64,000 nt of DNA, taken from assembly GCA_965223255.1 (NCBI GenBank), contig CBDCWA010000004.1, positions 1,611,514 through 1,675,513 on the forward strand, read 5' to 3'. Origin of the DNA: Hyphomicrobiaceae bacterium. Lineage in GTDB: Bacteria > Pseudomonadota > Alphaproteobacteria > Rhizobiales > Hyphomicrobiaceae. Of the stretch, positions 4,788 to 19,164 are shown in pieces. Numbering within the stretch: position 1 is the first letter of the stretch; each line of letters opens with the position of its first letter. The notes under the pieces are model-generated. The model was not told the DNA's origin, made no database searches, and saw only the letters and a program-made list of their open reading frames with translations. Both the position numbers and the translations under genes were made by a program.

Positions 4788-5147
4788 AATCAGCTAACAG
4801 ATTTCCACCTTTCCCTACGACACGGATTATCAAGGAACGTGGCGCCAATGGATGTGGCGAACAAACGTAACTTGACCAGGTCTCTATTGTTCCGATCGGC
4901 GATCAATCTCGCGCGGCTTTTTTCTTGCACCATTGAAATGCCCCGCCGGCTTTGCGCAGAAATGCGGTCGGACACCGCCCCATATGACAGCGTTTGCCGC
5001 TGTATTGGCTGAACAATTCCGCCTGCAGACCGAGCGCGCTGGCTGCAAGTATATCGTAACGGCCGGTTCTTGGGTGGCACACATATTGCAACAAAATGGT
5101 GGTCTTAACGTAAACCGCTAAGTTAACTGAAAGCTTTGGAGGACGAG

Positions 5148-5618: not shown

Positions 5619-6305
5619 GTACCCGCCAAGAGCGATGCAAAGTAGTTTCAAAGCCGATCAGGCCAAGGGACCCTACCCTTGGCCTGCCAAAATGTCGGAG
5701 TAGATTTATTGTGGGTAGAGGAATCCGTGCCGGCGAAGCTGGTAAGAACGCGGGCTGCGACAAGCCTGCAATGGAGTTGAAGCAGCTGGACACAAAGCCA
5801 GTCAATTTATCGGATCAGGCGCAGTCGCAGATTAACTTTGTCCACTCTGACAAACAACAAACAAGTGGCACGGCGGACCAATGCGTGCCGTCGCATCAAC
5901 ACAAGCTGAGCATTTAATTCCCATGGTCAACGAGCGCTTTCGAAGGGCGCTTCCATTGTGTGGCGCAGGTGTCCGATTGCTTGATTGACCGGAGCCCCAT
6001 GCGTTCCATGGGTGTGATTCAACAGCTGACAACTAACATAGATAACATAGACGAATTTTTGCCTATTCGGCTCAAGTATCCGACATGCATGGGTTTTGCC
6101 AATTTGTCAGATGTAGGCCGCCCAACCTACGCATTGATAAATAATGTGAAAGTGCGGAGGTGGCCTGATATTTCCAAGTGCACCCAGACAAGATGGCAGC
6201 ATAGCTGCCACATCTGGCCGGTGTTGCTTGAGGCCGGAGTGGCTATTGTCTTGAATTTCCGGAAAAACCGAAGTTTTCCATTGCGAATCAATCAGTTGTA
6301 GCTTC

Positions 6306-6321
6306 TGGCACAGTCCTTGCA
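6306..6321 (+). promoter_or_regulatory. sigma54 (RpoN) -24/-12 promoter, exact consensus TGGCAC-N5-TTGCA
   Basis: TGGCACAGTCCTTGCA about 178 nt upstream of the Gly-Met-X protein gene; an NtrC-type activator is encoded 8 kb away. Confidence 0.55.
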
Positions 6322-6498: not shown

Positions 6499-7425
6499 AT
6501 GCGTGGCTACATGGCCGCGGCCGCGGTTATTGCAGCGGGCGTAATAACGGGTATGAGCAGCTCGGAAAGTACCGCGCAGGGCATGCGTGGCATGTACGGA
6601 ATGCCGGGTATGTACGGCATGGGCGGCATGCGCGGCATGCCTGGTATGGGCGGTATGTACGGCATGGGCGGCATGCGCGGCATGTACGGCATGGGTGGTA
6701 TGCGCGGCATGTACGGCATGGGCGGCGTGCGCGGCATGTACGGCATGGGTGGTATGCGAGGTCCAGCCGGCAGGTGGACTTGGGTGTGGGTGCCAGCTCC
6801 TACAAGCAGAATGAGAGGCATGTACGGTATGTACGGAATGCCGGGCATGTACGGCATGGGTGGCATGCGTGGTATGTACGGCATGTACGGAATGCCGGGT
6901 ATGTACGGCATGGGTGGCATGCGCGGTATGTACGGCATGGGCGGCATGCGCGGTATGTACGGTATGCGGGGCATGCCGGGCATGTACGGCATGGGCGGCA
7001 TGCGCGGTATGTACGGCATGGGCGGCATGCGCGGTATGTACGGTATGCGGGGCATGCCGGGCATGTATGGCATGTATGGAATGCCGGGCATGTACGGCAT
7101 GGGCGGCATGCGCGGTATGTATGGCATGGGCGGTATGCGCGGTATGTACGGTATGCGTGGCATGCCCGGTATGGGTGGCATGTACGGCATGTACGGAATG
7201 CCGGGCTTGTACGGCATGGGCGGCATGCGCGGCATGCGCGGTATGTACGGCATGGGCGGCATGGGCGGTATGTACGGCATGCGCGGAATGCCAGGTATGG
7301 GCGGCATGTATGGCATGCGCGGCATGCCGGGTATGGGCGGTATGCGTGGCATGCCCGGAACGCGAAGCTGGGCTCCTCCGCAACCACCGCAGACTCCGCC
7401 ACCGGCGCAGAAGAAGCCGAGCTAA
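6499..7425 (+). CDS. secreted methionine-rich Gly-Met-X triplet-repeat protein (about 80 GMX triplets, about 30% Met)
   Basis: Start at ATG 6499 (AAAGGAG RBS, spacing 9). Signal peptide MRGYMAAAAVIAAGVITGMSSSESTAQG. Then GM[YRPG] triplets in two blocks, about 20 and about 60, split by GPAGRWTWVWVPAPTSRMR. C-terminal Pro-rich tail PPQPPQTPPPAQKKPS. Codon third positions GC-rich in this frame only. Confidence 0.75.
   Translation: MRGYMAAAAVIAAGVITGMSSSESTAQGMRGMYGMPGMYGMGGMRGMPGMGGMYGMGGMRGMYGMGGMRGMYGMGGVRGMYGMGGMRGPAGRWTWVWVPAPTSRMRGMYGMYGMPGMYGMGGMRGMYGMYGMPGMYGMGGMRGMYGMGGMRGMYGMRGMPGMYGMGGMRGMYGMGGMRGMYGMRGMPGMYGMYGMPGMYGMGGMRGMYGMGGMRGMYGMRGMPGMGGMYGMYGMPGLYGMGGMRGMRGMYGMGGMGGMYGMRGMPGMGGMYGMRGMPGMGGMRGMPGTRSWAPPQPPQTPPPAQKKPS
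6583..7360. repeat. tandem nucleotide repeat (9-nt GGCATGNNN units with 81-nt higher-order period) underlying the GMX protein
   Basis: Repeating GGCATGTACGGCATGGGCGGCATGCGC. For example, the 44-nt string at 6943-6986 recurs exactly at 7024-7067. All six frames are open across it, which gives many overlapping artefactual ORFs. Confidence 0.9.
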
Positions 7426-7629
7426 GAGGGCATGGATTTTATGTGATGACAATGTGGGTGCCGGTGGGCAAAGACAGTGCACGCGCACAATGCCCCACCG
7501 GCCTCCGCAAAAACAACCCATCGCATCGTTTCGCTCGTCAACTAACAGCAGTCAAAATCACTTATACCGTGAACCGTTGATTTGATTTTGGGTGCGGTGA
7601 GATTTTCAGAATCTGTGCGGGGGAGGTGA

Positions 7630-8220
7630 ATGTCAGACAGTACTGAGAGCTACAGCGAGGCTGAAGCGTCGTCTCCAATAGAAGAGGCGCGAGCGAAGCC
7701 TATGAAACGAGAAGCATTCAACCAAATTGCTCCGTTTCTTGTCGCTGTCGCAGTCACCGCAGGCATTATAATGGTCTCCGTGGGGGTATCGAAAAAGCAG
7801 CCGGAGCTCGAGCCAGGTCCAAGCAAAGACATCGGCCGACCTGCGGCTCCGCTGTCAAGCGCGAAAGTGCCCGCCGCAAAAGGGCCGGCCGCCACTGCAC
7901 CAAAAGATCCGCAAGTGAGAACGACACCACCAAAGGAGACGGCTTCCCGGCCCTCGAAAGTAGAACCAGTAAAATCCGAATCATCATCGACTGTTAAGAG
8001 TCTTTTTGTCGGCGGTGCAGCACCGAGTAGACGTCCCTCTGATGCTCCGTCGATCAAAGACCTTGCAAAGGACGCCGATTGGTATGCGCGTGCACTTACC
8101 GGCCTCGCAAAGCCCTACCCGCGCAGCTTCAAGTTTTTGGAAGACCAAGGTGCTTGGTATACGCCCTTCAACAAGCGCGGAATGACTGGCCCTTACGACA
8201 TTAGGAGTTGGCATGAATAA
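7630..8220 (+). CDS. single-pass membrane protein with Pro/Ala-rich linker and a conserved about 50-aa C-terminal module
   Basis: GGGGGAGG RBS; acidic N-terminus, TM IAPFLVAVAVTAGIIMVSVGV, low-complexity PAAPLSSAKVPAAKGPAATAPKDP, then C-terminal WYARALTGLAKPYPRSFKFLEDQGAWYTPFNKRGMTGPYDIRSWHE. Confidence 0.6.
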   Translation: MSDSTESYSEAEASSPIEEARAKPMKREAFNQIAPFLVAVAVTAGIIMVSVGVSKKQPELEPGPSKDIGRPAAPLSSAKVPAAKGPAATAPKDPQVRTTPPKETASRPSKVEPVKSESSSTVKSLFVGGAAPSRRPSDAPSIKDLAKDADWYARALTGLAKPYPRSFKFLEDQGAWYTPFNKRGMTGPYDIRSWHE

Positions 8221-9046
8221 GAACACTGGGATGCAACAAATAGCACAGCCATTCACAAATCATGCGTGGCGACCAATGGGCGTCACTGCAATCAAATCCT
8301 TGATTCCAGAAGCGTCGCTCATAGCATCTCTATTGTGGGCAAGTCTGTTCATGATCGGCGTCGCCGACGCGCGCGCTGAAGGCGATATTGAGCAGGGCAA
8401 GAGAGTATTCAGGCTCTGCATCGCCTGCCATAAGATTGGGCCAGGGGCGAGAAACCTGAGCGGGCCAAAACTCAATGGCATTGTTGGCCGAAAGGCCGGC
8501 ACCGTTGAGGGGTTCAAGTATTCTCCCGCCAACAAGAAGGCTGGCGAACAGGGATGGATTTGGACCGAACAGGCATTGGATAAATATTTGGAGAACCCGC
8601 GCAAGGCGATGCCTGGCAATCGGATGGTGTTCATCGGGATAAAAAGCGCGAAGGATAGAAAGAATCTCATCGCTTATCTCAAGTCATTCAAGTCAAGTCA
8701 GCACCGCGGGACGACCAAGACCATGGACGCCGCATCAGCACCGGTCCAGCCGGGGGCTAAAACAAAGCGTTCGGCGAAGGCCGAGCGCGGGGGCAAATCC
8801 CAACCCAAACGGACGACGTCAGTCATATGGGTCGGTGGATCAACCCCGTCCAAACGGCCACCCGCCGCACCGCGCCTGAGAAGCTTCGAGAAGACGCCTG
8901 CCTGGTACCGCCGTGCTCTGGCAGGCCTGTCGAAGCCCTATCCGCCGAGCTTCCGGTTCCTCGAGGATCAAGGTGCTTGGTACACACCATTCAATAGCTC
9001 GGGCATGACAAGCCCTTACGATCTGCGCGCTTGGCATAAAAGTTAG
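8213..9046 (+). CDS. class I (c2-like) cytochrome c with C-terminal extension carrying the same about 50-aa module
   Basis: AGGAG RBS; signal peptide ...MIGVADA; CIACH heme site, GPKLNGIVGRKAG, Met ligand region NRMVFIGIK; basic/Pro-rich linker; C-terminal WYRRALAGLSKPYPPSFRFLEDQGAWYTPFNSSGMTSPYDLRAWHKS. Confidence 0.8.
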   Translation: MNKNTGMQQIAQPFTNHAWRPMGVTAIKSLIPEASLIASLLWASLFMIGVADARAEGDIEQGKRVFRLCIACHKIGPGARNLSGPKLNGIVGRKAGTVEGFKYSPANKKAGEQGWIWTEQALDKYLENPRKAMPGNRMVFIGIKSAKDRKNLIAYLKSFKSSQHRGTTKTMDAASAPVQPGAKTKRSAKAERGGKSQPKRTTSVIWVGGSTPSKRPPAAPRLRSFEKTPAWYRRALAGLSKPYPPSFRFLEDQGAWYTPFNSSGMTSPYDLRAWHKS

Positions 9047-9116: not shown

Positions 9117-9977
9117 ATGATGCACAGAACGCTAACCTTGGCAGTGAGTTGCCTGTCCGTCGTTCTTGTCACAGGCAGCATTTATTCGTTTGCATGGTCA
9201 GAGAGTGGCACACGCAAGGGCGATTATGCTGCTGCGGTATGGAACAAACTTCATTTCTCACCAGCCATTGATCGCGCAAGAGATGAGCAGTGCCTTTCAT
9301 GCCATAGCGAGATCCTCAAGCAAAAAGTGCGCACCAAGTCTCCCGCCGGGATAAAGGCGAAAGATTCAATTGCTTGGTATCAGGCAATGGATACGTACAC
9401 AGGAGATCAAGAAACGTTTCATTGGCGGCATATTTCTTCGCCTTTTGCAAAGGCTGTCATGAAGCTGTCGTGCAATTTCTGTCACCGTGGACACGATCCG
9501 CGTGAAGAGGCGCCAGGCTCGAGTGCAACCGCACCGCAAATTGGCAAAGCGACTGGGTTTGCCTTGCGCAAGACGGTTGATCCTTCGCAAACGTGCCTCA
9601 AGTGCCATGGCAGCTTTCCCTATAAGATCATGCAATTGCCGGGACCTTGGCACGAAGTGCGACCGTTAATGGAGTCACCGGAAATAAAAAACGGCTGCCT
9701 AGGCGCTTGTCACAAGGTAGCATTCCGCACCAATCGCCATAACGTGACCTATCTCAATCGCGACAAGATAGAGGAATTGTCCAAGGACAACTCGGACACG
9801 TGCTTTGGCTGTCATGGCGGAAGGGCATGGTACCGGAATTCCTACCCTTATCCGCGAAATCCCTGGCCCGGCATGGACAAAGAGATTCCAAAGTGGGCCA
9901 AGGATAGGCCCACCCAATCCGAAGCGCGCTTTCGCATTGGCGACAAACAAGGCGCCGCGGCTGGCAAGACGAAATAG
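9117..9977 (+). CDS. multiheme c-type cytochrome (four CXXCH plus one CX3CH)
   Basis: N-terminal hydrophobic anchor/signal; CLSCH, CNFCH, CLKCH, CFGCH plus CLGACH. Confidence 0.75.
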   Translation: MMHRTLTLAVSCLSVVLVTGSIYSFAWSESGTRKGDYAAAVWNKLHFSPAIDRARDEQCLSCHSEILKQKVRTKSPAGIKAKDSIAWYQAMDTYTGDQETFHWRHISSPFAKAVMKLSCNFCHRGHDPREEAPGSSATAPQIGKATGFALRKTVDPSQTCLKCHGSFPYKIMQLPGPWHEVRPLMESPEIKNGCLGACHKVAFRTNRHNVTYLNRDKIEELSKDNSDTCFGCHGGRAWYRNSYPYPRNPWPGMDKEIPKWAKDRPTQSEARFRIGDKQGAAAGKTK

Positions 9978-10012: not shown

Positions 10013-12547
10013 ATGAGTGTGAAGATTGACGTCCTCAGATCAGCTTTAAACCTGACGCGCCGCCGTTTCGTGCAACTGTCGGCGGCAAGTGCAGCCGCCG
10101 GTGCGGCAGGGCTTAAGCCGGAGCAGGCACAGGCGTTCGCCTATGAACCATATCCGACTGACGACGAGCTGACGACGATAGTAACAAGCTGCGCGCATAA
10201 TTGCGGATCGCGTCACGCACTCGTTGCACACAAGAAAGGTGATGTAATTGTCAGGCTGTCATCGGATGACGGACGCTATCAGAAGGATGGAGAATACGGC
10301 AAGGATACAGAGGACGAGCCGCAGGTGCGCGCCTGTCTGCGCGGACGGTCGTATCGTTCGCGGCTCTACTCGGCAGAGCGCCTGCTCCATCCCATGATTC
10401 GGGTCGGAGCGCGCGGTGAAGGGAAATTCAAACGCGCCTCCTGGGATACGGCGTTGGACTACATTGCCGAGCGCATAGTGAACATTAAGAATACCTATGG
10501 GCCAACTGCAATCCTGGACCAAAGCTATGCCGGCGCCTCATGGGGCGTCTTGCATCGCTCGGATCAGATCGAGGGGCTATTAGGGCGCTTTCTCGGCATT
10601 TTCGGTTGCCGCACGACGTCCTGGTCCGTGCCTTCGTATCAGGGAACGACTTTTTCGTCAGAAACGACCTTTGGCACGATTGAGGATGGAAATGAGGATG
10701 ATACGTTTGCCCACTCCAAGCTGATGATCATGTGGGGCTGGAATCCGGCCTACACATTTCATGGCGGCAATACATTCTACTATATGCGACTTGCAAAGCA
10801 GCGCGGATGCAAATTTGTCTTGGTGGACCCGCAATACACAGATTCAGCGGCCTCCTATGATGCCTGGTGGATTCCAATTCGGCCTAATACGGATGCGGCA
10901 ATGCTCGCGGCAATGGCCCACTATATCTTTGTCAACAAACTTCAAGATCAGAGCTTCATCAATCGCTTCTGCCTTGGCATGGACGCGGGCACAATGCCGG
11001 CATTCGCCACCGACCAGGAAAATTTCAGAGACTACATTCTTGGCAGGTATGACGGTCAACCTAAGTCTCCGGAATGGGCGCAAGAGATCTGTGGTGTAAA
11101 GGCCGATGACATCAAGAAGCTCGCGCGGATGTATGCGACGACAAAGCCAGCGGCATTGAAAGCAAGCTGGGCGCCAGGGCGATGCGCATACGGCGAACAG
11201 TATAGCAGGATGGCCGCGGCCCTTCAGGCAATGACCGGAAACATCGGTGTCTTGGGCGGCAGTGCTGAAGGCGTCGGCAAGGCCTGGAAAGCACAGGCTG
11301 CTGCGGGACCGGTAGATCAATACGCCAACATACATGCCGCTGCGATCAAGTCAGATAGATGGGCCGACTGCGTCCTTAATTACCCAAATGTGCGCCGCGA
11401 AGATGTCGGCTTGTGGCCGAAGTCGGGCGCCATGGATGGGGTAATACCGAATATTCGAGCGATTTGGTGGCAAGCGTCCGACTGGTTTAACCAGCTCCCC
11501 AACATCAACAAACAAATAGAAGCGATCCAAAAGCTTGATCTCGTCGTCTGCCAAGATTCGACCATTACGCCATCTGGGATATGGGCCGATGTGCTTCTGC
11601 CGGTTGCTACCCACTTCGAGCGCCACGATGTGGCCCTGCCTTGGTACAAGGGCCACTACTATATTCATAGGCCGAAGGTGATCGAGCCGCTTGGAGAAAG
11701 CAAGACCGACTGGCAGATTTTCACCGAGCTCGCGTTCCGACTCGGATTTGGCAAGACCATGAATCCACTTGCCTCCCGCGACTATTTCCACAACGATGAT
11801 GCGACCGACGAGGCGTATCTCAGGGATTGGTGGGAAAAGCGCGTCATGGGGTATCAAGGAGTTACGATGCCCTGGGATGAGTTCAAGAAACGCGGCATCT
11901 ACAAATTCCGACTGGACAAGCCCCATGTTGCCTTTCGCGAGCAGATTGAGGAGGGCAAACCATTCAAGACCACCTCCGGCAAGATCGAGATATTCTCTAT
12001 CAAACTATCGAACATTAAGGACTTTCGCCAAACGCAGTTTGGTTATCCTATCCCCGCAATCCCAAAATGGATTGAGCCATGGGAAGGCAGGCGCGATCCA
12101 AAGGTGCGCCAATATCCATTCCAGATGATCACGCCACACCCACGTTGGCGAACGCACTCAATATTCAACAACATCGGGTGGCTTCGGGAGACCTATGAGC
12201 AGGAAGTGACAATCAATGCGGACGATGCCGAGAAGCTCGGCATTAAGACAGGGGACAACGTCTACATCTGGAATGAGCGAGGCGCGACGGTGACACCAGC
12301 CTATGTGACACAACGACTGATGCCGGGCGTCGTTGTGCTTTACGAAGGCGCTTGGATGGATCGGGACACAAAGGGTATCGACCGGTCCGGCAATCCGGAT
12401 TTCCTGACCCTGGATGCGCCCAGCCCTGCAGGGGCATTTGCATACAATACGCTGTTGGTAAACATGCAGAAGACCGATCTGCCGCATCGACCCGGCTGGG
12501 ACAAGCTCGCAACGGCACGCAGCCACGTCTTCCGGCGTGACAATTGA
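10013..12547 (+). CDS. Tat-exported DmsA/YnfE-family molybdopterin (bis-MGD) oxidoreductase catalytic subunit
   Basis: GGAGG RBS; twin-arginine signal TRRRFVQLSAASAAAGAAG; TSCAHNCGSRHAL aligns with E. coli DmsA SACTVNCGSRCPL; QVRACLRGRS...HPMIRVGARGEGKFKRASWDTALDYIA is near-identical to the DmsA block as I recall it. Confidence 0.9.
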   Translation: MSVKIDVLRSALNLTRRRFVQLSAASAAAGAAGLKPEQAQAFAYEPYPTDDELTTIVTSCAHNCGSRHALVAHKKGDVIVRLSSDDGRYQKDGEYGKDTEDEPQVRACLRGRSYRSRLYSAERLLHPMIRVGARGEGKFKRASWDTALDYIAERIVNIKNTYGPTAILDQSYAGASWGVLHRSDQIEGLLGRFLGIFGCRTTSWSVPSYQGTTFSSETTFGTIEDGNEDDTFAHSKLMIMWGWNPAYTFHGGNTFYYMRLAKQRGCKFVLVDPQYTDSAASYDAWWIPIRPNTDAAMLAAMAHYIFVNKLQDQSFINRFCLGMDAGTMPAFATDQENFRDYILGRYDGQPKSPEWAQEICGVKADDIKKLARMYATTKPAALKASWAPGRCAYGEQYSRMAAALQAMTGNIGVLGGSAEGVGKAWKAQAAAGPVDQYANIHAAAIKSDRWADCVLNYPNVRREDVGLWPKSGAMDGVIPNIRAIWWQASDWFNQLPNINKQIEAIQKLDLVVCQDSTITPSGIWADVLLPVATHFERHDVALPWYKGHYYIHRPKVIEPLGESKTDWQIFTELAFRLGFGKTMNPLASRDYFHNDDATDEAYLRDWWEKRVMGYQGVTMPWDEFKKRGIYKFRLDKPHVAFREQIEEGKPFKTTSGKIEIFSIKLSNIKDFRQTQFGYPIPAIPKWIEPWEGRRDPKVRQYPFQMITPHPRWRTHSIFNNIGWLRETYEQEVTINADDAEKLGIKTGDNVYIWNERGATVTPAYVTQRLMPGVVVLYEGAWMDRDTKGIDRSGNPDFLTLDAPSPAGAFAYNTLLVNMQKTDLPHRPGWDKLATARSHVFRRDN

Positions 12548-13233
12548 TGATTGGGGACACAGATATGGCAAAGGCGCCGATTGACAAGAAGAAGATAAAG
12601 AACGCGGTAAAACGCAAGAAACAAGACGTTTACAAGCCAGTGGTTCCCCACCAACAGCTCGGGTTTATCCATAACAATGTCGATTGTATCGGGTGCAGGG
12701 CTTGCGAGATTGCTTGTAAGGATAAGAATGGGTTAGCACCCGGACCAAGATTCCGCAGAGTACAATATATCGAGGGTGGCACATATCCCGAGGTGTTTGC
12801 ATACAAGGTAAATATGTCGTGCAATCACTGCGCTGAACCTGCCTGCCTTCCCGCCTGTCCCACCGGCGCGATCTACAAACGGAAAAAGGATGGTATTGTC
12901 GACATTGACTCGACGTTGTGCATCGGATGCCGGCGCTGCGAGGCCACATGCCCCTACGGCGCACCGCAATACATCCCTGATCAAAATATCGTTTCTAAGT
13001 GTAATATGTGCGTGGATGAGATTGATGCCGGTCGTAAGCCCTATTGCGTGATGGCCTGCATGATGCGCGTGCTCGATATTGGTCCGATAGACAAATTGCG
13101 TGATGGGACTTGGGACACTAAAGCCAAGGCAAAGCAGGAGAAAGTTGTACGTCAGGTGCAGAATATGGCGGATCCGGAGCTAACCAATCCATCGATCGTA
13201 TTCGTCGCGCATAGCAAGGGCAAAGTGAAATAG
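12544..13233 (+). CDS. DmsB-like 4x[4Fe-4S] electron-transfer subunit
   Basis: Four Cys clusters: CIGCRACEIAC, CNHCAEPACLPACP, CIGCRRCEATCP, CNMCVDEIDAGRKPYCVMAC. Probable true start ATG 12565 (MAKAPID, GGGGA RBS). Confidence 0.9.
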   Translation: MMIGDTDMAKAPIDKKKIKNAVKRKKQDVYKPVVPHQQLGFIHNNVDCIGCRACEIACKDKNGLAPGPRFRRVQYIEGGTYPEVFAYKVNMSCNHCAEPACLPACPTGAIYKRKKDGIVDIDSTLCIGCRRCEATCPYGAPQYIPDQNIVSKCNMCVDEIDAGRKPYCVMACMMRVLDIGPIDKLRDGTWDTKAKAKQEKVVRQVQNMADPELTNPSIVFVAHSKGKVK

Positions 13234-13302: not shown

Positions 13303-14130
13303 GTGCACAAACCTATCAGAGGTGCCCACCATGCTGGCCCTAGCCAGCATGCAGGGCGGGAGAATTCATTCGTGCAAGACCATGGACAAAGCGAAGCTGA
13401 ACTTCTTGCTGCTTTCAGAGAGTCGGTCGATGATGACCTGAAGTTGATTGCAGCACTGCACGATCGCGAGATCGATGCACCTGCGATCGCGCAGCTCAAA
13501 CAACTGAGGTTTCCCAGTGGCCTCGGTTTTAATCTGTCAAAGTCGGCAGCGAAACAAGCCCAACGACAAATGATCGATGCTCTTGCGGATCTGCCGGATG
13601 TACCCGATCAAGCGCTTCTCGATGAACTCGCCGTCGATTTTGCAGCAATCTATCTGACCTATCGCTACCGGGCCGCGCCAACGGAATCCGTGTGGCTCGA
13701 TAAGGACCATCTCGAGCGCCAGCAACCTATGTTTCAGACCCGAGCCGCCTACCGCCGAAGAGGTCTGAAGGTCGTCAACTGGAACGTGAGGTCTGAAGAT
13801 CACCTGGTCACTCAACTGCTTTTTGTGGCGCATTTGATTGGCGAATGTCGCGACGAAGTGGCGCTAGCGGATGCTGCAGCGTTCCTTGACCAGCACTTGC
13901 TCCGTTGGATTGACATCTTCGCCTTGAGTGTAGCGCAACGTTGCAGCGCTCGTTTTTATAGCGCCCTCGGCTCGCTGACAGCTGCCTATTTGGACGAGCT
14001 GCGCGATGTTCTCGCAGAGATCCTGGATGAACCGCGACCCCAAATCGTAACAGCCGATCAGATTCTGCAGCCACCCGACGAAGCCGAGCAGCACACTCCA
14101 ATCGCACCGGCCGTTGGTCCAAGCTGGTGA
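13303..14130 (+). CDS. TorD/DmsD-family redox-enzyme maturation chaperone
   Basis: Position immediately after A/B subunits; ...EDHLVTQLLFVAHLI... resembles the TorD family signature; start uncertain (alternative GTG 13372 with GGGAG RBS). Confidence 0.6.
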   Translation: MHKPIRGAHHAGPSQHAGRENSFVQDHGQSEAELLAAFRESVDDDLKLIAALHDREIDAPAIAQLKQLRFPSGLGFNLSKSAAKQAQRQMIDALADLPDVPDQALLDELAVDFAAIYLTYRYRAAPTESVWLDKDHLERQQPMFQTRAAYRRRGLKVVNWNVRSEDHLVTQLLFVAHLIGECRDEVALADAAAFLDQHLLRWIDIFALSVAQRCSARFYSALGSLTAAYLDELRDVLAEILDEPRPQIVTADQILQPPDEAEQHTPIAPAVGPSW

Positions 14131-14151: not shown

Positions 14152-15534
14152 TTAGTCGCTGCGTTCACTAACGCTAAGTCCATGCTTCTTGAGCAACCTG
14201 TACGTGTTGCGCTCGCTTATTCCCAATACTTCAGCAATCCGCGAGCGATGTCCGCCGTATTTTACGACCAATCTAGCCAGGTAATCTCGCCGGATTTCCT
14301 CTAACGTTGGCTCGTGATCAAACATGAACGCCGCCGTTTCACAACGAGACGACTGAGCGCTGGGTGGAGCACTCAACCCCAGGTGCCGTGCTCGGATAGT
14401 AACGTCGTCGCCAGATACCAGGATTGCCCGCTCTATGACGTTTCTAAGCTCGCGAACATTGCCTGGCCATGAGTATGCGGTAAGCACCTCAATGGCATCC
14501 TTGCTCAATATCTTCTGCCGGGCGCGCTGAAAAGATCTGGTATCCAAAAACAGCTCTGACAGCACCGCGATGTCCTCGCGCCGCTGTCGCAGCGGTGGTA
14601 CACTGATCACAACTGTAGCCAAGCGATAGTAAAGGTCAGATCGAAATCGTCCCTCGTCGATGGATGCTATAAGGTCACGATTAGTTGCAGCGACGATGCG
14701 CGCGTCACTGATTATCTTCTGGGTGCCGCCGACGCGCCGAAATTCTCCGGTCTCAAGCACGCGCAGTAGTTTTGCCTGCATCGACGCAGGCAATTCGCCG
14801 ATTTCGTCAAGGAACAGTGTTCCGCCCTCGGCAATTTCGATCAAGCCCTGCTTGCGCCGGTCCGCTCCTGTAAATGCCCCTTTCTCGTGACCAAACAACT
14901 CCGATTCGAACAGCGTCTCTTGTAATGTCGTTGCATCCACAGGCACAAAGTTGGAATCCGCACGATCGCTCAGCTGGTGAATGGCTTTTGCTACAAGCTC
15001 CTTGCCGACGCCACTTTCGCCCTCGATTAGAACCGTTGAATCGCTTGGTGCGACCAACTCAATAAGATGTGCCATTTCCTCAAAAGCATTGCTCCGTCCA
15101 ACCATAATCTTCTTGATGTTGGGATTTAGTTGTTCTCGGCAATACTGGTAGCTGCGCCTCAAGGAGCTGTTTTCCAATGCTCGGCCAATAGCAAACTCCA
15201 GTTCGGACGGATTGATCGGTTTCGTCAGATAGTCAACCGCACCAGACCGGATAGCTTCGACTGCATGCCGAATGCTTCCGTACGCCGTCAGAACGAGCAC
15301 AGGGCATTGAGCTGAAAGTTCCGGCAAACACTGGATACCATCGATGTCGGGAAGTCTGATATCGAGGAGAGCAAGAGCGGGATCATGAGTCTCCAGCGTC
15401 ACCTTGGCTTCCTCCCATGAATAGACGCCAGTTGGCTGATAGCCCATCGCCCGCAGTTGTTCGATCAGAAAATGATTAAGTGCCTTGTCGTCCTCTATGA
15501 CAAGAAGATGCTTACCTTTCTTTCTTTGCGTCAT
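14152..15534 (-). CDS. sigma54-dependent NtrC-family response regulator (receiver-AAA+-HTH)
   Basis: Receiver domain with D...LLDIRLPDIDG; Walker A GESGVGKE; GAFTGA sigma54-contact motif (ESELFGHEKGAFTGA); C-terminal Fis-type HTH. Confidence 0.9.
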   Translation of the reverse strand: MTQRKKGKHLLVIEDDKALNHFLIEQLRAMGYQPTGVYSWEEAKVTLETHDPALALLDIRLPDIDGIQCLPELSAQCPVLVLTAYGSIRHAVEAIRSGAVDYLTKPINPSELEFAIGRALENSSLRRSYQYCREQLNPNIKKIMVGRSNAFEEMAHLIELVAPSDSTVLIEGESGVGKELVAKAIHQLSDRADSNFVPVDATTLQETLFESELFGHEKGAFTGADRRKQGLIEIAEGGTLFLDEIGELPASMQAKLLRVLETGEFRRVGGTQKIISDARIVAATNRDLIASIDEGRFRSDLYYRLATVVISVPPLRQRREDIAVLSELFLDTRSFQRARQKILSKDAIEVLTAYSWPGNVRELRNVIERAILVSGDDVTIRARHLGLSAPPSAQSSRCETAAFMFDHEPTLEEIRRDYLARLVVKYGGHRSRIAEVLGISERNTYRLLKKHGLSVSERSD

Positions 15535-17435
15535 GATAGTTCTTTCGCTACTTCTGCAGAAGGCAATGTGACAACGAATCTAGTCCCCTCACCAACCACG
15601 CTCGTCACATCTAACCTGCCGCCGCTTCGTTTGACTATTTCTTGGCATATTGAAAGCCCAAGCCCTGTTCCGTGAACGCCGTCGGCACGTTTACTCCAGA
15701 AGGGATCGAATATTTTGGCGAGATCGCTCTTCTTGATCCCCACGCCAGTGTCCTCAAAGACCAGCTCGACCACATCTTCGCAGACTGAGCCCGAAACCAG
15801 CAGGCGCCCGCCATCAGGCATGGCATGCAGAGCGTTCTGTGCGATGTTTAGCACCATCATTCTCATCTCGCTGTCGGAGCCGATTGATCTGAGTTCACTC
15901 TCAAGATCCATCGATATGTCGACCTCTGACTTCAGTGCCTCAGCGTTGAGTAGGGAGAGAACCTCGAACACGACGTTGTTGAGATTTACAAGTTCGCGGT
16001 GCTCGCTTGCTGGTGCGCTAAGCTTCAAAAGACGCGACGTAACTTCTATGCAGCGCGTTATCTGATCTTCGATAATGTCAAGATACTTGCTTGCCTTCTC
16101 GTCCCGACCCTCCCGTAGAGCTCTTTTCGCTGAGTCGAAGCCCAAAAGTATGGACGCAAGAGGGTTGTGAATCTCGTGTGCAACACCCGCGGCCAGGAAG
16201 CCAATTTCCGACAGCCGCTGCTCTTGCGATAGCCGCACGTCCTTGCTCAGGTCTCTAATGACCTCCACAACGAATTTTTTTTGCGTGTCGTCAATAGTGA
16301 TTTCAAGCAGCGCTGCTGAGACCTCGACCGGGATTTCTTTCTCATCGGCGCTCACATGAGAATGCCGACAAGTCAAGACCTGCCCTCCTTTCTGCAGTTC
16401 ATGCAGCGGACAGCTGACCAAGCTCGCTGGGCAAGGCGATTCACGAGAATGGCTGGACCAATAGCAGGGTCGCTGTACCACCTCAGACCGCGCGCGATGC
16501 TGTTGTTCGCAGAATGCGCGGTTAGCCTTGACGACCTGATAGTTCATGTCGATCACGCGCACTCCATCGGGCATTATGTCGATCAGGTCCTGCAAATACC
16601 GCTCTCTGGTCTCTATATTGTGTACAGCTTGAGCGATACGAGCGGACATGTCGTTAAAGGCACGTCCAAGCCGCCCAATCTCATCGGAGCTTTTTAGCGG
16701 CACACGGTGACCCAGTTGGCCCAGCGACATCTTATCCGCTGCCTCGGTCAGTCCTTTCACAGGTGCGAGCACGAACCAGTTAAGCAGAAATCCGATGCCA
16801 CCAATGGTAGTCAGCACGACTGCTATTCCGGCACCACTCAGCATCAATACTGCAAACATTGTGTCGCGTCTGATGTTCGTTGCGTCATAGTCAACGACGA
16901 GAATTCCGTTTATTGGGTGGGTATCAATCTGGCCATGGCATTTAGTGCATGGGCCGCGGTTGCGGACCGGGTTTATGCTGCGCAGAATGTCACCAGCAAC
17001 GGCGTCCGCAACGAAGGCCGAACGGGGCCCGTGCCCTTTTATTGTTGCCTTGCAGTCTGGGCACAACTCACCTGCTTCGAGATCAAAACGTCGGCCAAGC
17101 TGTATCTTGTTGCTCGCAAATCTGACTTCACCATTCGGCGCAAGAATCATGACACCGGAAATATTCTCCTGTTCACCCAATCGTTCGACCATTTTCCTCA
17201 GGCCAACGATGTCACGATTGAGCATCGCATTCTCAAGCCCCAGCTGCAGCAGGCGGTTGACCTCCGTGGATGCTGCGCTGCGTTCCCTCAGGATTTGATC
17301 ACGATAGGAGAGAATGACCAACGCAAGGAAACAGATCGATGCAAACGTTAGGCTTGCGACAAGGATCAGGGTTATTTTCCGCCTTAGGCTTGCAGCAGAC
17401 CACCTGGCTAGGTCATTCCATAACTGTCCCATCAT
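15531..17435 (-). CDS. sensor histidine kinase; periplasmic domain with CXXC and CXXCH motifs, then HAMP and a Cys-rich PAS-like region
   Basis: Two TM helices flank an about 140-aa periplasmic domain with CPDCKATIKGH and GPCTKCHGQ. Cytoplasmic part has C-x11-C-x6-C-x16-C, H-box AHEIHNPLA and an HATPase_c domain with G-boxes DTGVGI, GTGLGL. Stop overlaps the RR start. Confidence 0.85.
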   Translation of the reverse strand: MMGQLWNDLARWSAASLRRKITLILVASLTFASICFLALVILSYRDQILRERSAASTEVNRLLQLGLENAMLNRDIVGLRKMVERLGEQENISGVMILAPNGEVRFASNKIQLGRRFDLEAGELCPDCKATIKGHGPRSAFVADAVAGDILRSINPVRNRGPCTKCHGQIDTHPINGILVVDYDATNIRRDTMFAVLMLSGAGIAVVLTTIGGIGFLLNWFVLAPVKGLTEAADKMSLGQLGHRVPLKSSDEIGRLGRAFNDMSARIAQAVHNIETRERYLQDLIDIMPDGVRVIDMNYQVVKANRAFCEQQHRARSEVVQRPCYWSSHSRESPCPASLVSCPLHELQKGGQVLTCRHSHVSADEKEIPVEVSAALLEITIDDTQKKFVVEVIRDLSKDVRLSQEQRLSEIGFLAAGVAHEIHNPLASILLGFDSAKRALREGRDEKASKYLDIIEDQITRCIEVTSRLLKLSAPASEHRELVNLNNVVFEVLSLLNAEALKSEVDISMDLESELRSIGSDSEMRMMVLNIAQNALHAMPDGGRLLVSGSVCEDVVELVFEDTGVGIKKSDLAKIFDPFWSKRADGVHGTGLGLSICQEIVKRSGGRLDVTSVVGEGTRFVVTLPSAEVAKELS

Positions 17436-17962
17436 TGCGATGCCAGCCGAATGATAAAGCTCTCAGTAGGAACAAGATCCGTATCAATCCGGCAAAGCCT
17501 TTCGGTTTGGTCAGCAAGATCATCCTGGAAGACGGTGATCGGAACGACGACCGGCACCAGCCATTCCCGCGCAGCAAATGCCTTAAGCCAGTCCCGCCGC
17601 TCCTCAGAGGCCTTTGTCGCGAGAATGGATTCCGCGTTATGCACAACGAGCCCGCCACGATTCGATTTCTTTTCGATGTACGCGGTCAGAGCCGATAGTG
17701 GAACCTGGCCGGCCTCCCATCCCAGGGGGAGAAGTTTTTCCGCCCGAAAGTCTATGAAGGTGAAGTCAAGAGCATTCGTCATGGCGCGTATTAACTCTGG
17801 CCGGTACTCGGGAAAAACGACGAAGAAACCTCCACGTCCAGCAGCCTGGGCAATCATCTCGGCAACCGGCCTTATCCAAGGTAATAGAGGCTCTCGAGAC
17901 TGCATCATCGCAACACTTGAAACAGTTTGTCGTAATGCTGCGTCTTCAGGCAGATCCGACAT
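17432..17962 (-). CDS. hypothetical protein co-transcribed with the two-component system
   Basis: Overlaps kinase start by 4 nt; start may be an internal Met at 17908/17905 abutting the upstream stop. Confidence 0.5.
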   Translation of the reverse strand: MSDLPEDAALRQTVSSVAMMQSREPLLPWIRPVAEMIAQAAGRGGFFVVFPEYRPELIRAMTNALDFTFIDFRAEKLLPLGWEAGQVPLSALTAYIEKKSNRGGLVVHNAESILATKASEERRDWLKAFAAREWLVPVVVPITVFQDDLADQTERLCRIDTDLVPTESFIIRLASQ

Positions 17963-19148: not shown

Positions 19149-19164
19149 TGCAACTCCTGTGCCA
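19149..19164 (-). promoter_or_regulatory. sigma54 -24/-12 promoter, exact consensus, reading into the polyferredoxin-kinase-regulator operon
   Basis: Plus strand GCAACTCCTGTGCCA = minus strand TGGCACAGGAGTTGCA; about 55 nt upstream of ORF start 19083. Confidence 0.55.

What the first reader, a model, noticed from the sequence alone, without database searches (positions are those of the whole stretch)
6499..7425. Secreted protein built from about 80 consecutive Gly-Met-X triplets (about 30% methionine), behind a sigma54 promoter
After a normal signal peptide the whole mature protein is GM[Y/R/P/G] triplets. Gly sits at every third residue, a collagen-like G-X-Y register, and Met at every third residue, a continuous MxxM 'Mets' register. 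One 19-residue Trp/Val-rich break (GPAGRWTWVWVPAPTSRMR) splits it, and it ends in a Pro-rich tail. This composition is far outside ordinary low-complexity linkers. The DNA is a 9-nt repeat with an exact 81-nt higher-order period, implying recent expansion and likely length polymorphism. An exact TGGCAC-N5-TTGCA element lies about 178 nt upstream. Two functional readings are reasonable. It could be a sacrificial methionine sink for periplasmic oxidants such as HOCl, chloramines or peroxynitrite; this is the MrpX concept, but with a different, repeat-based architecture. Or it could be a high-capacity Cu(I)/Ag(I)-binding MxxM protein. The Gly periodicity also raises the possibility of polyproline-II/collagen-like assembly.
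Basis: partly seen in the sequence, partly recalled or inferred. Interest (0 to 1): 0.88.

Follow-up and report, generated by a model that had tools for sequence, protein, structure and literature searches.

The report
Secreted Gly-Met repeat protein, molybdoenzyme operon
This is a real gene for a secreted protein made almost entirely of Gly-Met-X triplets, and it belongs to an undescribed family found across proteobacteria beside a DMSO-reductase-like molybdenum enzyme, probably serving as a rechargeable methionine "sponge" for oxidants.

Summary
ORF 6499-7425 (+) encodes a signal peptide, 20 + 60 Gly-Met-X triplets split by a 19-residue Trp/Val island, and a Pro-rich tail. The mature protein is 28% Met and 36% Gly. 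An exact sigma54 -24/-12 box lies 178 nt upstream.

The gene opens a conserved operon:
- GMx protein
- small unknown membrane-anchored protein
- multihaem cytochrome
- Tat-exported DmsA-like molybdoenzyme (35% identical to E. coli DmsA, Ser ligand)
- DmsB-like FeS subunit
- TorD-like chaperone

A polyferredoxin, a haem-c sensor kinase and a sigma54 activator lie alongside. In 77 of 84 loci holding this enzyme (Alpha-, Beta-, Gammaproteobacteria), a secreted GM-rich gene lies upstream on the same strand. Sigma54 boxes and a palindromic enhancer motif recur there.

In Ca. Thiodiazotropha endoloripes the apparent orthologous enzyme is among the most expressed proteins. The repeat gene there was annotated "SRP54".

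Best reading (inferred, about 0.45): a periplasmic methionine sink re-reduced by its own S-oxide reductase. This resembles MrpX/MsrPQ in function but uses unrelated parts. The copper and collagen readings gain no support. I found no description in the searchable literature.

The parts
6097..6109 (+). Candidate enhancer (UAS) palindrome TGCCAATTTGTCA for the sigma54 activator, 209 nt upstream of the -24/-12 box
   Evidence: The same TG[AC]CA-N3-TG[TG]CA motif lies upstream of the second sigma54 box of the cluster (19250, 19283). It also lies upstream of the operon start in most related loci, often as a pair about 65 bp apart. Binding is inferred.
6306..6321 (+). Sigma54-type -24/-12 promoter element TGGCACAGTCCTTGCA
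   Evidence: Exact consensus match. Equivalent boxes occur upstream of the first operon gene in 32 of 44 loci against about 3 expected. A sigma54-activator gene is in the cluster.
6499..7425 (+). GMx-repeat protein gene (308 aa; alternative start ATG 6469)
   Evidence: ORF and RBS. Synonymous variation supports this frame. Secreted GM-rich homologues occupy the same operon position in 77 of 84 loci.
6499..6579 (+). Predicted Sec signal peptide MRGYMAAAAVIAAGVITGMSSSESTAQ
   Evidence: Read from the sequence. All complete family members start with a basic plus hydrophobic N-terminus. AlphaFold2 predicts a helix only at residues 5-16. No signal-peptide predictor was run.
6580..6759 (+). First block of 20 Gly-Met-X triplets
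   Evidence: triplet listing.
6760..6816 (+). Aromatic island GPAGRWTWVWVPAPTSRMR. It shifts the triplet register by one residue.
   Evidence: It corresponds to the family's recurring islands G[QN]WVW[VQM]P, GYFxITPxGxIFFYP and GPGWVCTQWT.
6817..7356 (+). Second block of 60 Gly-Met-X triplets (27-nt DNA period, with a local 81-nt duplication around 6916-7070)
7357..7425 (+). Pro-rich C-terminal tail GTRSWAPPQPPQTPPPAQKKPS plus stop codon
   Evidence: A W-x-P-P C-terminal motif occurs in 21 of 60 complete family members.
7455..7508 (+). Stable stem-loop just after the stop codon, with no U-tract. Possibly an mRNA-stabilising or attenuating hairpin.
   Evidence: RNA fold of 7420-7560: -46.4 kcal/mol, z = -2.3. 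Function is inferred.
7630..8220 (+). Membrane-anchored protein carrying a conserved unknown ~70-aa domain (8005-8217: ...PYPxSFxFLEDQGxWYTPF..GMTGPYDIRxWH)
   Evidence: The domain is encoded next to the GMx gene in 45 loci, usually just upstream. It has no Pfam, NCBIfam or PDB match. There are 243 clusters in 1.84 billion representatives.
8213..9046 (+). Class I cytochrome c (CIACH) fused to a second copy of the unknown domain (8828-9043)
9117..9977 (+). Secreted multihaem c cytochrome (4 CxxCH plus CLGACH)
   Evidence: Present in 80 of 84 loci directly upstream of the Mo gene.
10013..12547 (+). Tat-exported DmsA/YnfE-like Mo-bisPGD catalytic subunit (844 aa)
   Evidence: RR motif. TIGR02166 scores 615 bits against a cut-off of 777.7. 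35% identical to E. coli DmsA. Ser aligns with the DorA Ser147 and DmsA Mo ligand. More than 573 relatives, the best 80 at 72-81% identity.
12544..13233 (+). DmsB-like four-cluster FeS subunit
   Evidence: Pfam Fer4_11. 47% identical to E. coli DmsB. Present in 80 of 84 loci.
13303..14130 (+). NarJ/TorD/DmsD-family maturation chaperone
   Evidence: Pfam Nitrate_red_del. Present in 72 of 84 loci.
14152..15534 (-). NtrC-type response regulator with sigma54-interaction domain
   Evidence: Pfam. Also next to GMx genes found independently.
15531..17435 (-). Sensor histidine kinase (TM, periplasmic domain with CTKCH haem-c motif, TM, HAMP, PAS, HisKA, HATPase)
   Evidence: CxxCH is conserved in 44 of 45 orthologues.
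17432..17962 (-). Cytoplasmic protein of unknown function, part of the kinase operon
   Evidence: No Pfam hit. Present in 8 loci.
17905..19083 (-). Cytoplasmic polyferredoxin (24 Cys, no TM segment)
   Evidence: Present in 54 of 84 loci, usually after the chaperone gene on the operon strand.
19149..19164 (-). Second exact sigma54 box of the cluster, driving polyferredoxin, kinase and regulator. UAS palindromes lie at 19250-19262 and 19283-19295.

Best explanation
The ORF is a genuine gene for a Sec-exported, intrinsically disordered periplasmic protein of about 80 Gly-Met-X triplets. It belongs to an undescribed protein family. That family forms the start of a conserved sigma54-dependent operon in Alpha-, Beta- and Gammaproteobacteria.

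The usual gene order is:
1. small membrane-anchored protein with an unknown ~70-aa domain
2. one to four GMx proteins
3. multihaem c cytochrome
4. Tat-exported DmsA-like molybdoenzyme
5. DmsB-like FeS subunit
6. TorD-like chaperone
7. cytoplasmic polyferredoxin
8. haem-c sensor kinase
9. NtrC-type activator

Proposed mechanism (inferred, not shown): the protein is a high-capacity thioether sink. Periplasmic oxidants (HOCl, chloramines, peroxide, peroxynitrite) convert its roughly 80 exposed, Gly-flanked methionines to methionine sulfoxide. The co-encoded periplasmic DmsAB-like S-oxide reductase then reduces them back. Electrons reach it from the respiratory chain through the multihaem cytochrome. 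The pair therefore acts as a catalytic oxidant-quenching cycle. The haem-c kinase and its sigma54 activator switch the operon on through the TGNCA-N3-TGNCA enhancer sites and the -24/-12 promoter.

In function this would parallel MrpX plus MsrPQ, but every component is unrelated.
For: Shown:
- Real coding frame.
- Secreted GM-rich homologues occur in 77 of 84 loci that carry the Mo enzyme, always upstream on the same strand.
- GMx genes found independently of the enzyme also sit by the enzyme or the sigma54 two-component system. The same holds in an unbiased DNA-pattern scan.
- G and M are fixed while x is free. Met-Met spacing is 3 in 92% of cases; the median is 26% Met.
- No predicted fold.
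- The enzyme is periplasmic (Tat motif) and of the Ser-ligated S-/N-oxide reductase type. Its best NCBIfam match is dmsA_ynfE. It is 35% identical to E. coli DmsA and its partner 47% identical to DmsB. The DorA Ser147 and Tyr114 equivalents are conserved.
- Sigma54 boxes and a palindromic UAS recur upstream of the operon.
- The kinase's periplasmic domain keeps CxxCH in 44 of 45 orthologues.

From the literature:
- DMSO-reductase-family enzymes reduce free and protein-bound Met sulfoxide: DorA (PMC7402097) and C. concisus BisA (PMC10653797, title and abstract).
- A methionine-rich periplasmic protein recycled by a Mo reductase scavenges hypochlorite: MrpX/YedY (PMC4436054).
- In Ca. Thiodiazotropha endoloripes the gene set A3193_10185 to A3193_10205 matches this operon in order and sizes. 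Its 854-aa Mo enzyme is among the most expressed genes in all transcriptomes and proteomes, together with aa3 oxidase, that is, where oxygen is present. The 336-aa repeat gene is transcribed (PMC6872982 and supplements).

Weak support:
- Extracytoplasmic MsrA or MsrAB lies within 10 kb in 4 loci, including the window.
- A periplasmic thioredoxin-NHL lipoprotein lies nearby in 14 gammaproteobacterial loci.
Against: - No experiment links GMx oxidation to this enzyme. The substrate of the enzyme clade is unknown.
- The enzyme scores below the DmsA/YnfE family cut-off (615 against 777.7 bits). It has SYAG where DorA has the SYGW motif reported as necessary for sulfoxide reduction.
- Its relatives also reduce DMSO, selenate and possibly iodate or bromate. 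The enzyme could therefore serve respiration, with GMx in another role.
- MsrA is not a conserved neighbour. No known oxidant-defence regulator or gene is conserved in the locus.
- The GMx product (A3193_10185) does not occur in the stored proteome table of T. endoloripes. That file was cut when stored, and GMS repeats give no tryptic peptides, so this is inconclusive.
- Orthology of the T. endoloripes genes rests on gene order and sizes, not on sequence.
- The signal sensed by the kinase is unknown.
Confidence: 0.45

Rival explanations
1. The operon is a respiratory or detoxifying reductase for a small substrate: DMSO, free Met sulfoxide, TMAO, selenate, or chlorate, bromate or iodate. GMx is an accessory. 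It might absorb reactive by-products such as hypohalous acids generated by the enzyme itself. It might bind thioether or sulfoxide substrates or products. It might feed back on the haem-c sensor. It is not itself the enzyme's main substrate.
For: - The enzyme is DmsA/YnfE-like and has a full electron-transfer chain and chaperone, like respiratory systems.
- Dms-type enzymes are linked to DMSO, selenate and possibly iodate or bromate reduction (PMC13488963).
- Authors have interpreted the Thiodiazotropha enzyme as a DMSO reductase and electron sink.
- Perchlorate reducers pair an oxyanion reductase with a methionine-rich scavenger.
Against: - No chlorite dismutase or other oxyanion-pathway gene is conserved nearby.
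- The sensor is a haem-c kinase rather than a TorT/TorS-type substrate sensor.
- High expression alongside aa3 oxidase is odd for anaerobic respiration.
- This reading does not explain why a 26% Met protein, often in 2-4 copies, is so strictly conserved as a leading gene.
Confidence: 0.25
2. GMx is a structural or chaperone-like periplasmic material. It would be a flexible Met/Gly polymer that forms a cohesive phase or gel, comparable to FG repeats. Alternatively it would bind unfolded or hydrophobic clients, like the GGM tails of GroEL or the SRP54 M domain. The aromatic islands would act as cross-linking or docking sites. It might organise or shield the reductase complex.
For: - No predicted fold.
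- Conserved short beta-hairpin-like islands and C-terminal W-x-P-P motifs punctuate the repeats.
- A neighbouring protein that is very abundant in Thiodiazotropha (A3193_10180 type) is built from a similar 'RGWHVERTADGSTLLYPL' motif.
- GroEL tails are GGM repeats.
- RAST confused the protein with SRP54.
Against: - This is analogy only.
- It does not explain the strict pairing with an S-oxide-type reductase.
- Betaproteobacterial members lack islands altogether.
Confidence: 0.12
3. GMx is a high-capacity Cu(I)/Ag(I) (soft-metal) sponge that uses its continuous M-x-x-M register.
For: The M-x-x-M spacing matches known Cu(I) 'Mets' motifs (established knowledge; one search lists CueO Met-rich-domain papers). 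Met spacing of 3 holds in 92% of cases.
Against: - No copper-homeostasis genes occur among the conserved neighbours in 84 loci.
- The repeats have no His, Asp or Cys co-ligands.
- Regulation is by a haem-c kinase and sigma54, not by CueR/CusRS-type systems.
Confidence: 0.06
4. It is a collagen-like triple-helical or polyproline-II fibre, or it is not a real protein at all (repeat DNA that happens to be open).
For: Gly at every third residue. Pfam Collagen and Scl-type NCBIfam hits.
Against: - Those hits are far below the family cut-offs or are compositional (76 against 325 bits).
- Across the family the third position is Ser or Gly in 73% of triplets.
- No trimerisation domain and no predicted structure.
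- The 'not a gene' reading is contradicted by frame-specific synonymous variation, by signal peptides in all complete homologues and by transcription in Thiodiazotropha.
Confidence: 0.03

Closest known systems
MrpX with MsrPQ (YedYZ) of Azospira suillum PS and relatives (Melnyk et al. 2015, PMC4436054)
   Same: A signal-peptide-bearing, methionine-rich periplasmic protein is encoded in one operon with a periplasmic molybdenum enzyme that can reduce sulfoxides. The proposed logic is the same: sacrificial Met oxidation followed by enzymatic regeneration.
   Different: - MrpX is small, 20% Met and 44% charged residues, and not a G-M-x repeat.
[quoted passage not shown]
- Its regulation is by the ECF sigma SigF/NrsF.
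- Here the protein is an uncharged ~80-unit repeat, the reductase is a DmsAB-type bis-PGD enzyme with a c-type multihaem partner, and control is by a haem-c kinase, an NtrC-type activator and sigma54.
- Sequence homology to MrpX was not tested because no MrpX sequence was available.
DmsABC / YnfEFGH of E. coli, and Shewanella DmsEFAB
   Same: Tat leader, N-terminal FS0 motif, Ser Mo ligand, 35% identity to DmsA and 47% to DmsB, and a TorD/DmsD-type chaperone. E. coli DmsA reduces Met-R-sulfoxide (PMC7402097).
   Different: - No DmsC or NrfD-type membrane anchor; a secreted multihaem cytochrome takes its place.
- The score is below the TIGR02166 cut-off.
- The third FS0 Cys is replaced by His (CAHNCGSRH).
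- Sigma54 control.
- The conserved GMx gene and the unknown-domain gene have no counterpart.
DorA (Rhodobacter) and BisA (Campylobacter concisus): periplasmic DMSO-reductase-family enzymes that repair protein-bound Met sulfoxide
   Same: They are a precedent that soluble periplasmic enzymes of this superfamily act on Met sulfoxide in unfolded or flexible proteins (PMC7402097; PMC10653797).
   Different: Those are single-subunit Dor/Tor/Bis-type enzymes without an FeS subunit. The window enzyme matches them less well than it matches DmsA (245 bits to DorA). They have no dedicated Met-rich partner.
GGM repeats of the GroEL C-terminal tail, and the SRP54 M domain
   Same: Gly/Met-rich flexible segments. 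RAST annotated the Thiodiazotropha GMx gene as SRP54 for this reason. GroEL tails dominate an unbiased (GM.)n DNA scan.
   Different: Those are short cytoplasmic tails or helical domains of larger proteins. GMx is a stand-alone secreted protein with 8-178 units.
Met-rich Cu(I) motifs and sponges (CueO insert, CopB/PcoB N-termini, PcoE/SilE)
   Same: M-x-x-M spacing, periplasmic location and intrinsic disorder.
   Different: Those carry His, Asp or Glu co-ligands and sit in copper or silver resistance loci. Neither is true here.
Bacterial collagen-like proteins (Scl1/Scl2, Lcl)
   Same: Gly at every third residue. Weak HMM hits.
   Different: No Pro- or charge-rich X/Y positions across the family, no trimerisation or anchoring domain, and scores far below the family cut-offs.

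Membership tests
MrpX-type methionine-rich periplasmic scavenger | Exported to the periplasm (signal peptide) | tested here: met
   Basic and hydrophobic N-terminus in the window protein and in all complete homologues. No dedicated signal-peptide predictor was run.
MrpX-type methionine-rich periplasmic scavenger | Very high methionine content in an unstructured protein | tested here: met
   28% Met in the mature window protein; family median 26%. pLDDT 44.7. MrpX is 20% Met.
MrpX-type methionine-rich periplasmic scavenger | Encoded with yedYZ (msrPQ) and controlled by SigF/NrsF | tested here: not met
   The partners are a DmsAB-like enzyme and a multihaem cytochrome. Control is by sigma54 and a two-component system.
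MrpX-type methionine-rich periplasmic scavenger | Sequence homology to MrpX (Dsui_0158); charged-residue-rich composition (44%) | tested here: not met
   Composition differs: the only common charged residue is Arg at 9%.
MrpX-type methionine-rich periplasmic scavenger | Oxidised by hypochlorite in vivo and re-reduced by the partner reductase | not testable with these tools
   Needs biochemistry.
DmsABC/YnfEFGH S-oxide/selenate reductase (for the partner enzyme) | Tat-exported bis-PGD catalytic subunit with Ser Mo ligand and N-terminal FeS (FS0) motif | tested here: met
   TRRRF leader. Ser aligned to DorA Ser147 and the DmsA ligand. The FS0 motif is present but with His in place of the third Cys.
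DmsABC/YnfEFGH S-oxide/selenate reductase (for the partner enzyme) | Scores above the curated family threshold (TIGR02166, 777.7 bits) | tested here: not met
   615 bits.
DmsABC/YnfEFGH S-oxide/selenate reductase (for the partner enzyme) | DmsB-type four-cluster subunit | tested here: met
   47% identity to E. coli DmsB.
DmsABC/YnfEFGH S-oxide/selenate reductase (for the partner enzyme) | DmsC/NrfD-type quinol-oxidising membrane anchor | tested here: not met
   None in the window cluster or among the conserved neighbours. A multihaem cytochrome is present instead.
Collagen-like triple-helix proteins | Uninterrupted G-X-Y with helix-stabilising X/Y residues and a trimerisation domain | tested here: not met
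   The G-X-Y register is present. However, Y is Ser or Gly in 73% of family triplets, there is no extra domain, and NCBIfam scores are 57-76 bits against cut-offs of 325-500.
Periplasmic Cu(I)/Ag(I) Met-motif proteins | MxxM/MxM motifs | tested here: met
   Met spacing of 3 in 92% of cases.
Periplasmic Cu(I)/Ag(I) Met-motif proteins | Genomic association with copper or silver homeostasis genes or regulators | tested here: not met
   None among the conserved neighbours of 84 loci.
Periplasmic Cu(I)/Ag(I) Met-motif proteins | Measured metal binding | not testable with these tools
   Needs ITC or ICP-MS.
Sigma54-dependent promoter | GG at -24 and GC at -12 with consensus TGGCAC-N5-TTGCW, plus a cognate enhancer-binding activator | tested here: met
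   Exact box at 6306. Activator gene at 14152-15534. Boxes in 32 of 44 loci. Shared UAS palindrome. The transcription start was not measured.

The most novel reading that the evidence does not exclude
The physiological substrate of this widespread DmsAB-like enzyme is the oxidised GMx polypeptide itself. Its side chains are in effect a polymeric analogue of DMS/DMSO (my chemical analogy). The pair would form a protein-based, rechargeable periplasmic redox buffer wired to the respiratory chain. The haem-c sensor kinase would read the redox state of the pool, for example through thioether ligation of its haem by reduced GMx methionines. This would explain why an "anaerobic DMSO reductase" is among the most abundant proteins of lucinid-clam symbionts living with oxygen.
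Probability: 0.15. Interest if true: 0.9.

Novelty: new variant of a known kind. Interest (0 to 1): 0.82.

Why it matters
If the reading is right, a second periplasmic "methionine sink plus molybdenum reductase" defence exists. It would have evolved independently of MrpX/MsrPQ. It is present in hundreds of genomes of sulfur oxidisers, animal symbionts (lucinid clams, sponges) and wastewater bacteria.

It offers a concrete, testable answer to a puzzle open since 2016: why a DMSO-reductase-like enzyme is one of the most expressed proteins of Ca. Thiodiazotropha in oxygenated gills.

It also flags three systematic blind spots:
- These genes break short-read assemblies. 24 of the 83 comparison loci then fetched (L001-L083) begin inside the repeat.
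- They are misannotated. RAST called the apparent Thiodiazotropha orthologue "SRP54", and Pfam matches the window protein and two homologues to Collagen.
- Most members have no tryptic cleavage sites, so standard proteomics may not see them.

The accompanying unknown ~70-aa domain and the haem-c sensor kinase are further uncharacterised parts of the same system.

Tried and rejected
- Source organism: exact-sequence look-ups of the window's GMx, Mo enzyme and unknown-domain proteins found no contig. The unknown-domain protein is in the collection (P0016, on a 3.03-Mb NCBI/ENA contig) but carries no name. The organism was therefore not identified. The closest enzyme, at 81% identity, is in a Hyphomicrobium MAG.\n- AlphaFold2 on the GMx protein gave no structure.\n- AlphaFold2 on the unknown domain with a 38-sequence alignment reached only pLDDT 63.8, so no fold search was run.\n- A profile search of that domain against PDB and Pfam gave nothing.\n- Rfam found no riboswitch or other RNA in the 178-nt leader or in the operon.\n- A strict sigma54 pattern within 400 nt of GMx starts hit only 4 of 52 genes. 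In most loci the promoter lies upstream of the preceding small gene. Re-anchoring on the first operon gene gave 32 of 44.\n- MsrA and the cytochrome-c'-like gene next to the window gene looked like supporting context but are not conserved neighbours (4 and 2 of 84 loci). The c'-like ORF has no Cys at all, so it cannot bind haem c.\n- The sigma54 box at 5075 lacks the shared UAS.\n- Literature searches for Met-rich or Gly-Met repeat proteins with DMSO-reductase-family enzymes, and for the literal peptide strings, found no description. A Hyphomicrobium denitrificans regulation paper had nothing relevant.\n- The unbiased (GGNATGNNN)n metagenome scan returned mostly GroEL and thermosome tails, eukaryotic p23-like proteins and microsatellites. 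Only about 10 of 80 loci were secreted GMx genes.
Full report
**1. The observation**

The sequence at 6499-7425 (+) is as described.
- A good ribosome-binding site (AAGGAG, 10 nt) precedes ATG 6499. A second equally good pair lies at 6469, so the start is uncertain by ten codons.
- The product has a signal-peptide-like N-terminus, 20 Gly-Met-X triplets, the island GPAGRWTWVWVPAPTSRMR, 60 more triplets and a Pro-rich tail.
- The mature protein is 36% Gly, 28% Met, 10% Tyr, 9% Arg and 8% Pro.
- The DNA repeat has a 27-nt period (TRF, 26 copies, 74% matches). The 81-nt period is only a local duplication with one 71-nt exact run.
- The frame is right. GG and ATG are invariant in 79 units while the Gly third base varies. 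Differences between units are 50 synonymous to 71 non-synonymous in this frame. In four of the other five frames they are 8-15 to 113-135; one reverse frame gives 42 to 105. The long ORFs on the other strand and frames are by-products of the repeat.
- The exact sigma54 box is at 6306-6321.

**2. The neighbourhood in the window**

Downstream on the same strand lie:
- a membrane-anchored protein with an unknown C-terminal domain (7630-8220)
- a class I cytochrome c fused to a second copy of that domain (8213-9046)
- a secreted multihaem cytochrome (9117-9977)
- an 844-aa Tat-exported molybdopterin enzyme (10013-12547)
- a DmsB-like FeS protein
- a TorD/NarJ-type chaperone

On the opposite strand, behind a second exact sigma54 box (19149), lie a cytoplasmic polyferredoxin, an unknown protein, a HAMP-PAS histidine kinase and an NtrC-type sigma54 activator.

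Upstream are a membrane-anchored MsrA (4080-4787) and a cytochrome-c'-like ORF behind a third sigma54 box.

**3. What the enzyme is**

- Its best family model is dmsA_ynfE (615 bits, below the 777.7 cut-off).
- It is 35% identical to E. coli DmsA over its full length, and its partner is 47% identical to DmsB.
- The closest solved structures are Rhodobacter DMSO reductase and TMAO reductases.
- The Mo-ligand serine and DorA Tyr114 are conserved.
- The FS0 motif reads C-x3-C-x3-H instead of C-x3-C-x3-C.
- There is no DmsC.
- It is therefore a periplasmic, Ser-ligated, S-/N-oxide-reductase-type enzyme of a distinct clade.

**4. The association is conserved**

A homology search with the GMx protein returned a handful of secreted GM-repeat proteins. 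Three could be examined in context. Two sit directly upstream of an orthologous Mo enzyme (71-76% identical), with a kinase and sigma54 regulator alongside. The third sits next to the kinase and regulator on a contig that ends just after it.

Searching one genome per species with the enzyme gave more than 573 relatives. The best 80 (72-81% identical) span:
- Hyphomicrobium, Filomicrobium and other Alphaproteobacteria
- Rhodocyclales, Thiobacillus and Zoogloea
- Thiodiazotropha, Sedimenticola, Thiothrix, Beggiatoa, Thiomargarita, Chromatiaceae and Competibacter

The comparison set is 84 loci: the window, three loci found through GMx homologues, and these 80.
- 77 of the 84 have a GM-rich secreted ORF upstream on the same strand.
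- Of the other seven, three have under 1 kb of upstream sequence, three are orphan enzyme genes, and one seems to lack the gene.
- 24 loci begin inside the repeat, so the gene breaks assemblies.
- The conserved core is: multihaem cytochrome 80/84, FeS subunit 80/84, chaperone 72/84, polyferredoxin 54/84, and kinase and regulator 48/84.
- MsrA (4/84) and the c'-like gene (2/84) are not part of the core.

An unbiased DNA-pattern scan of metagenomes returned mostly GroEL tails and eukaryotic proteins. Of the roughly ten secreted GMx genes it found, six show operon markers and the rest are cut by contig ends.

**5. The family**

Sixty complete members range from 41 to 693 aa.
- The median is 26% Met and 36% Gly.
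- Met-Met spacing is 3 in 92% of cases.
- The third residue is free: Ser 44%, Gly 29%, Tyr 7%, Pro 4%.
- Cys and His are nearly absent.
- Repeats are punctuated by three kinds of short aromatic island: GYFxITPxGxIFFYP, G[QN]WVWxP (the window's type) and GPGWVCTQWT.
- Many members end in W-x-P-P or a Lys-rich tail.
- Betaproteobacterial members are short GMSGMSGQK/E repeats without islands.
- Several loci have two to four tandem paralogues.
- AlphaFold2 predicts no structure for the window protein (pLDDT 44.7, single sequence).

**6. A second conserved unknown**

A ~70-aa domain (...PYPxSLxFLEDQGxWYTPF..PGMTGPYDIRGWH) sits on a small membrane-anchored protein. In 45 loci it is encoded beside the GMx gene, usually just upstream. 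In the window it follows the GMx gene and recurs fused to cytochrome c.
- It has no Pfam, NCBIfam or PDB match.
- It forms 243 clusters among 1.84 billion representatives.
- It is not confidently folded by AlphaFold2.
- The cytochrome fusion suggests it docks onto the electron-transfer complex. That is inference.

**7. Regulation**

- When anchored on the first operon gene, 32 of 44 loci have a -24/-12 box (GG and GC fixed, at most two mismatches) in the 700 nt upstream, against about 3 expected.
- A palindrome TG[AC]CA-N3-TG[TG]CA, often as a pair about 65 bp apart, lies upstream of these boxes in most loci. It lies upstream of both cluster promoters in the window (6097; 19250 and 19283) but not upstream of the box at 5075. 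This is the likely enhancer for the cognate activator.
- The kinase's periplasmic domain carries a CxxCH haem-c motif conserved in 44 of 45 orthologues. This points to a redox, oxidant or ligand sensor rather than a binding-protein-coupled substrate sensor.
- No known RNA element lies in the leader.
- A stable hairpin follows the GMx stop codon.

**8. Published expression data**

Petersen et al. [quoted passage not shown] Thiodiazotropha endoloripes, alongside aa3 oxidase.

Their supplementary tables list the locus:

| Locus tag | Product as listed |
|---|---|
| A3193_10175 | sensor kinase |
| A3193_10180 | abundant hypothetical protein |
| A3193_10190 | 249-aa hypothetical protein |
| A3193_10195 | 854-aa molybdopterin oxidoreductase |
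| A3193_10200 | 4Fe-4S ferredoxin |
| A3193_10205 | TorD-like chaperone |

- Order and sizes match the Thiodiazotropha loci fetched here. The GMx gene in L066 is also 1011 nt.
- I therefore take A3193_10185 to be the GMx gene. This rests on synteny, not on sequence.
- It is transcribed. It does not occur in the stored proteome table, which was cut when stored, and its repeats offer no tryptic sites.
- A 2025 preprint still notes that the function of this "DMSO reductase" is undemonstrated.

**9. Interpretation**

The strict pairing of an exported, flexible, roughly 26% Met polymer with a periplasmic S-oxide-type reductase is best explained as a sink-and-recycle system. It would be analogous to MrpX/MsrP.

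Two precedents show that DMSO-reductase-family enzymes reduce protein-bound Met sulfoxide: DorA and C. concisus BisA. Gly on the N-terminal side of every Met should give maximal access to a deep active-site funnel. That is inference. Expression under oxic conditions in a host tissue fits defence better than anaerobic respiration.

Weak extra support comes from extracytoplasmic MsrA or MsrAB within 10 kb in four loci and from a periplasmic thioredoxin-NHL lipoprotein in 14 loci.

None of this is biochemical proof. The enzyme could instead respire a small S-/N-oxide or oxyanion, with GMx protecting against by-products or serving a structural, chaperone-like or signalling role. The copper reading has no contextual support, and the collagen reading is contradicted by the family's composition.

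**10. Novelty**

Full-text searches found no paper describing a Gly-Met repeat protein linked to a DMSO-reductase-family operon. None printed such sequences. A 2026 review of sulfoxide reductases does not mention it. The library does not cover subscription-only papers.

The concept is known; the components and architecture are new. I rate it a new variant of a known kind, with high interest. The family is widespread, highly expressed in at least one symbiosis, and systematically missed by assembly, annotation and proteomics.

Noticed in passing
window 5075-5618: A third exact sigma54 box (5075-5090) precedes an ORF that hits Pfam Cytochrome C' (6e-11). The ORF contains no cysteine at all, so it cannot bind haem c. 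It is a secreted four-helix-bundle-like protein of unknown role. Its promoter lacks the UAS palindrome shared by the other two sigma54 promoters.
   Followed up: partly
window 4080-4787: MsrA with an N-terminal membrane anchor or signal (extracytoplasmic type, GCFWC active site) lies 1.7 kb upstream of the GMx gene. Similar exported MsrA or MsrAB fusions lie within 10 kb in only three other loci (L022, L063, L071).
   Followed up: yes
window 10184-10216 (MoA residues 58-68): The FS0 iron-sulfur motif of the Mo enzyme reads C-x3-C-x3-H (TSCAHNCGSRH). E. coli DmsA has C-x3-C-x3-C. The His is invariant in the three orthologues aligned.
   Followed up: partly
window 15531-17435 (-), kinase residues ~38-190: The periplasmic sensor domain of the histidine kinase has a c-type haem motif (CTKCH) and a conserved LENAML segment, kept in 44 of 45 orthologues. 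It has no Pfam domain assignment.
   Followed up: partly
window 8213-9046 and 7630-8220: The unknown ~70-aa domain occurs twice in the window, once fused to a CycA-like cytochrome c. In most other loci it is a single ~110-aa protein encoded before the GMx gene, so the window has a rearranged gene order. The polyferredoxin-to-regulator segment is also inverted relative to most loci.
   Followed up: yes
L022 5619-6695; L066 6371-7183 (A3193_10180 type): Gammaproteobacterial loci carry, between the kinase and the operon, a secreted protein built from about five copies of 'DFESLRxLLExRGWHVERTADGSTLLYPL'. It has a C-terminal domain also found at the end of some GMx proteins (P0002; L076 3688-4656). 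Its apparent Thiodiazotropha counterpart is among the most abundant proteins in the proteome. It has no Pfam match.
   Followed up: partly
L082 7335-9002 and 13 other loci: A lipoprotein with a thioredoxin-like CxxC domain plus NHL repeats recurs near the operon in 14 gammaproteobacterial loci, on either strand.
   Followed up: partly
L013, L025, L033, L036, L054, L082 and others (24 loci): Contigs start inside the GM-repeat gene, and L017 has a run of N within it. The repeat evidently breaks short-read assemblies, so gene lengths in MAGs are unreliable. Very short versions (L040, 56 aa) may be collapsed.
   Followed up: partly
L008, L012, L069: Some GMx genes appear frame-shifted in the assemblies. 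The reading frame switches into the HVRH or CPAW alternative frames mid-repeat. This is probably sequencing or assembly error in the repeat.
   Followed up: no
L106 3874-4204: A different small Met/His/Cys-rich repeat protein (MHKHDMHKMYGMHGMQGMCGCGMQGM...) turned up in the pattern scan. Its composition looks more like a metal-binding protein, and it is unrelated to the operon.
   Followed up: no
window 21897-25144 (-): Two luciferase-like monooxygenase ORFs and a TauD-family dioxygenase lie about 3 kb beyond the cluster, with an OmpW gene at 20831-21538. This suggests organosulfur (sulfonate) utilisation genes nearby.
   Followed up: no
L016, L023, L046: In Albibeggiatoa and Thiotrichaceae MAGs, a 74-75% identical Mo-enzyme gene stands alone, without the cytochrome, FeS subunit, GMx or regulator genes.
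   Followed up: partly
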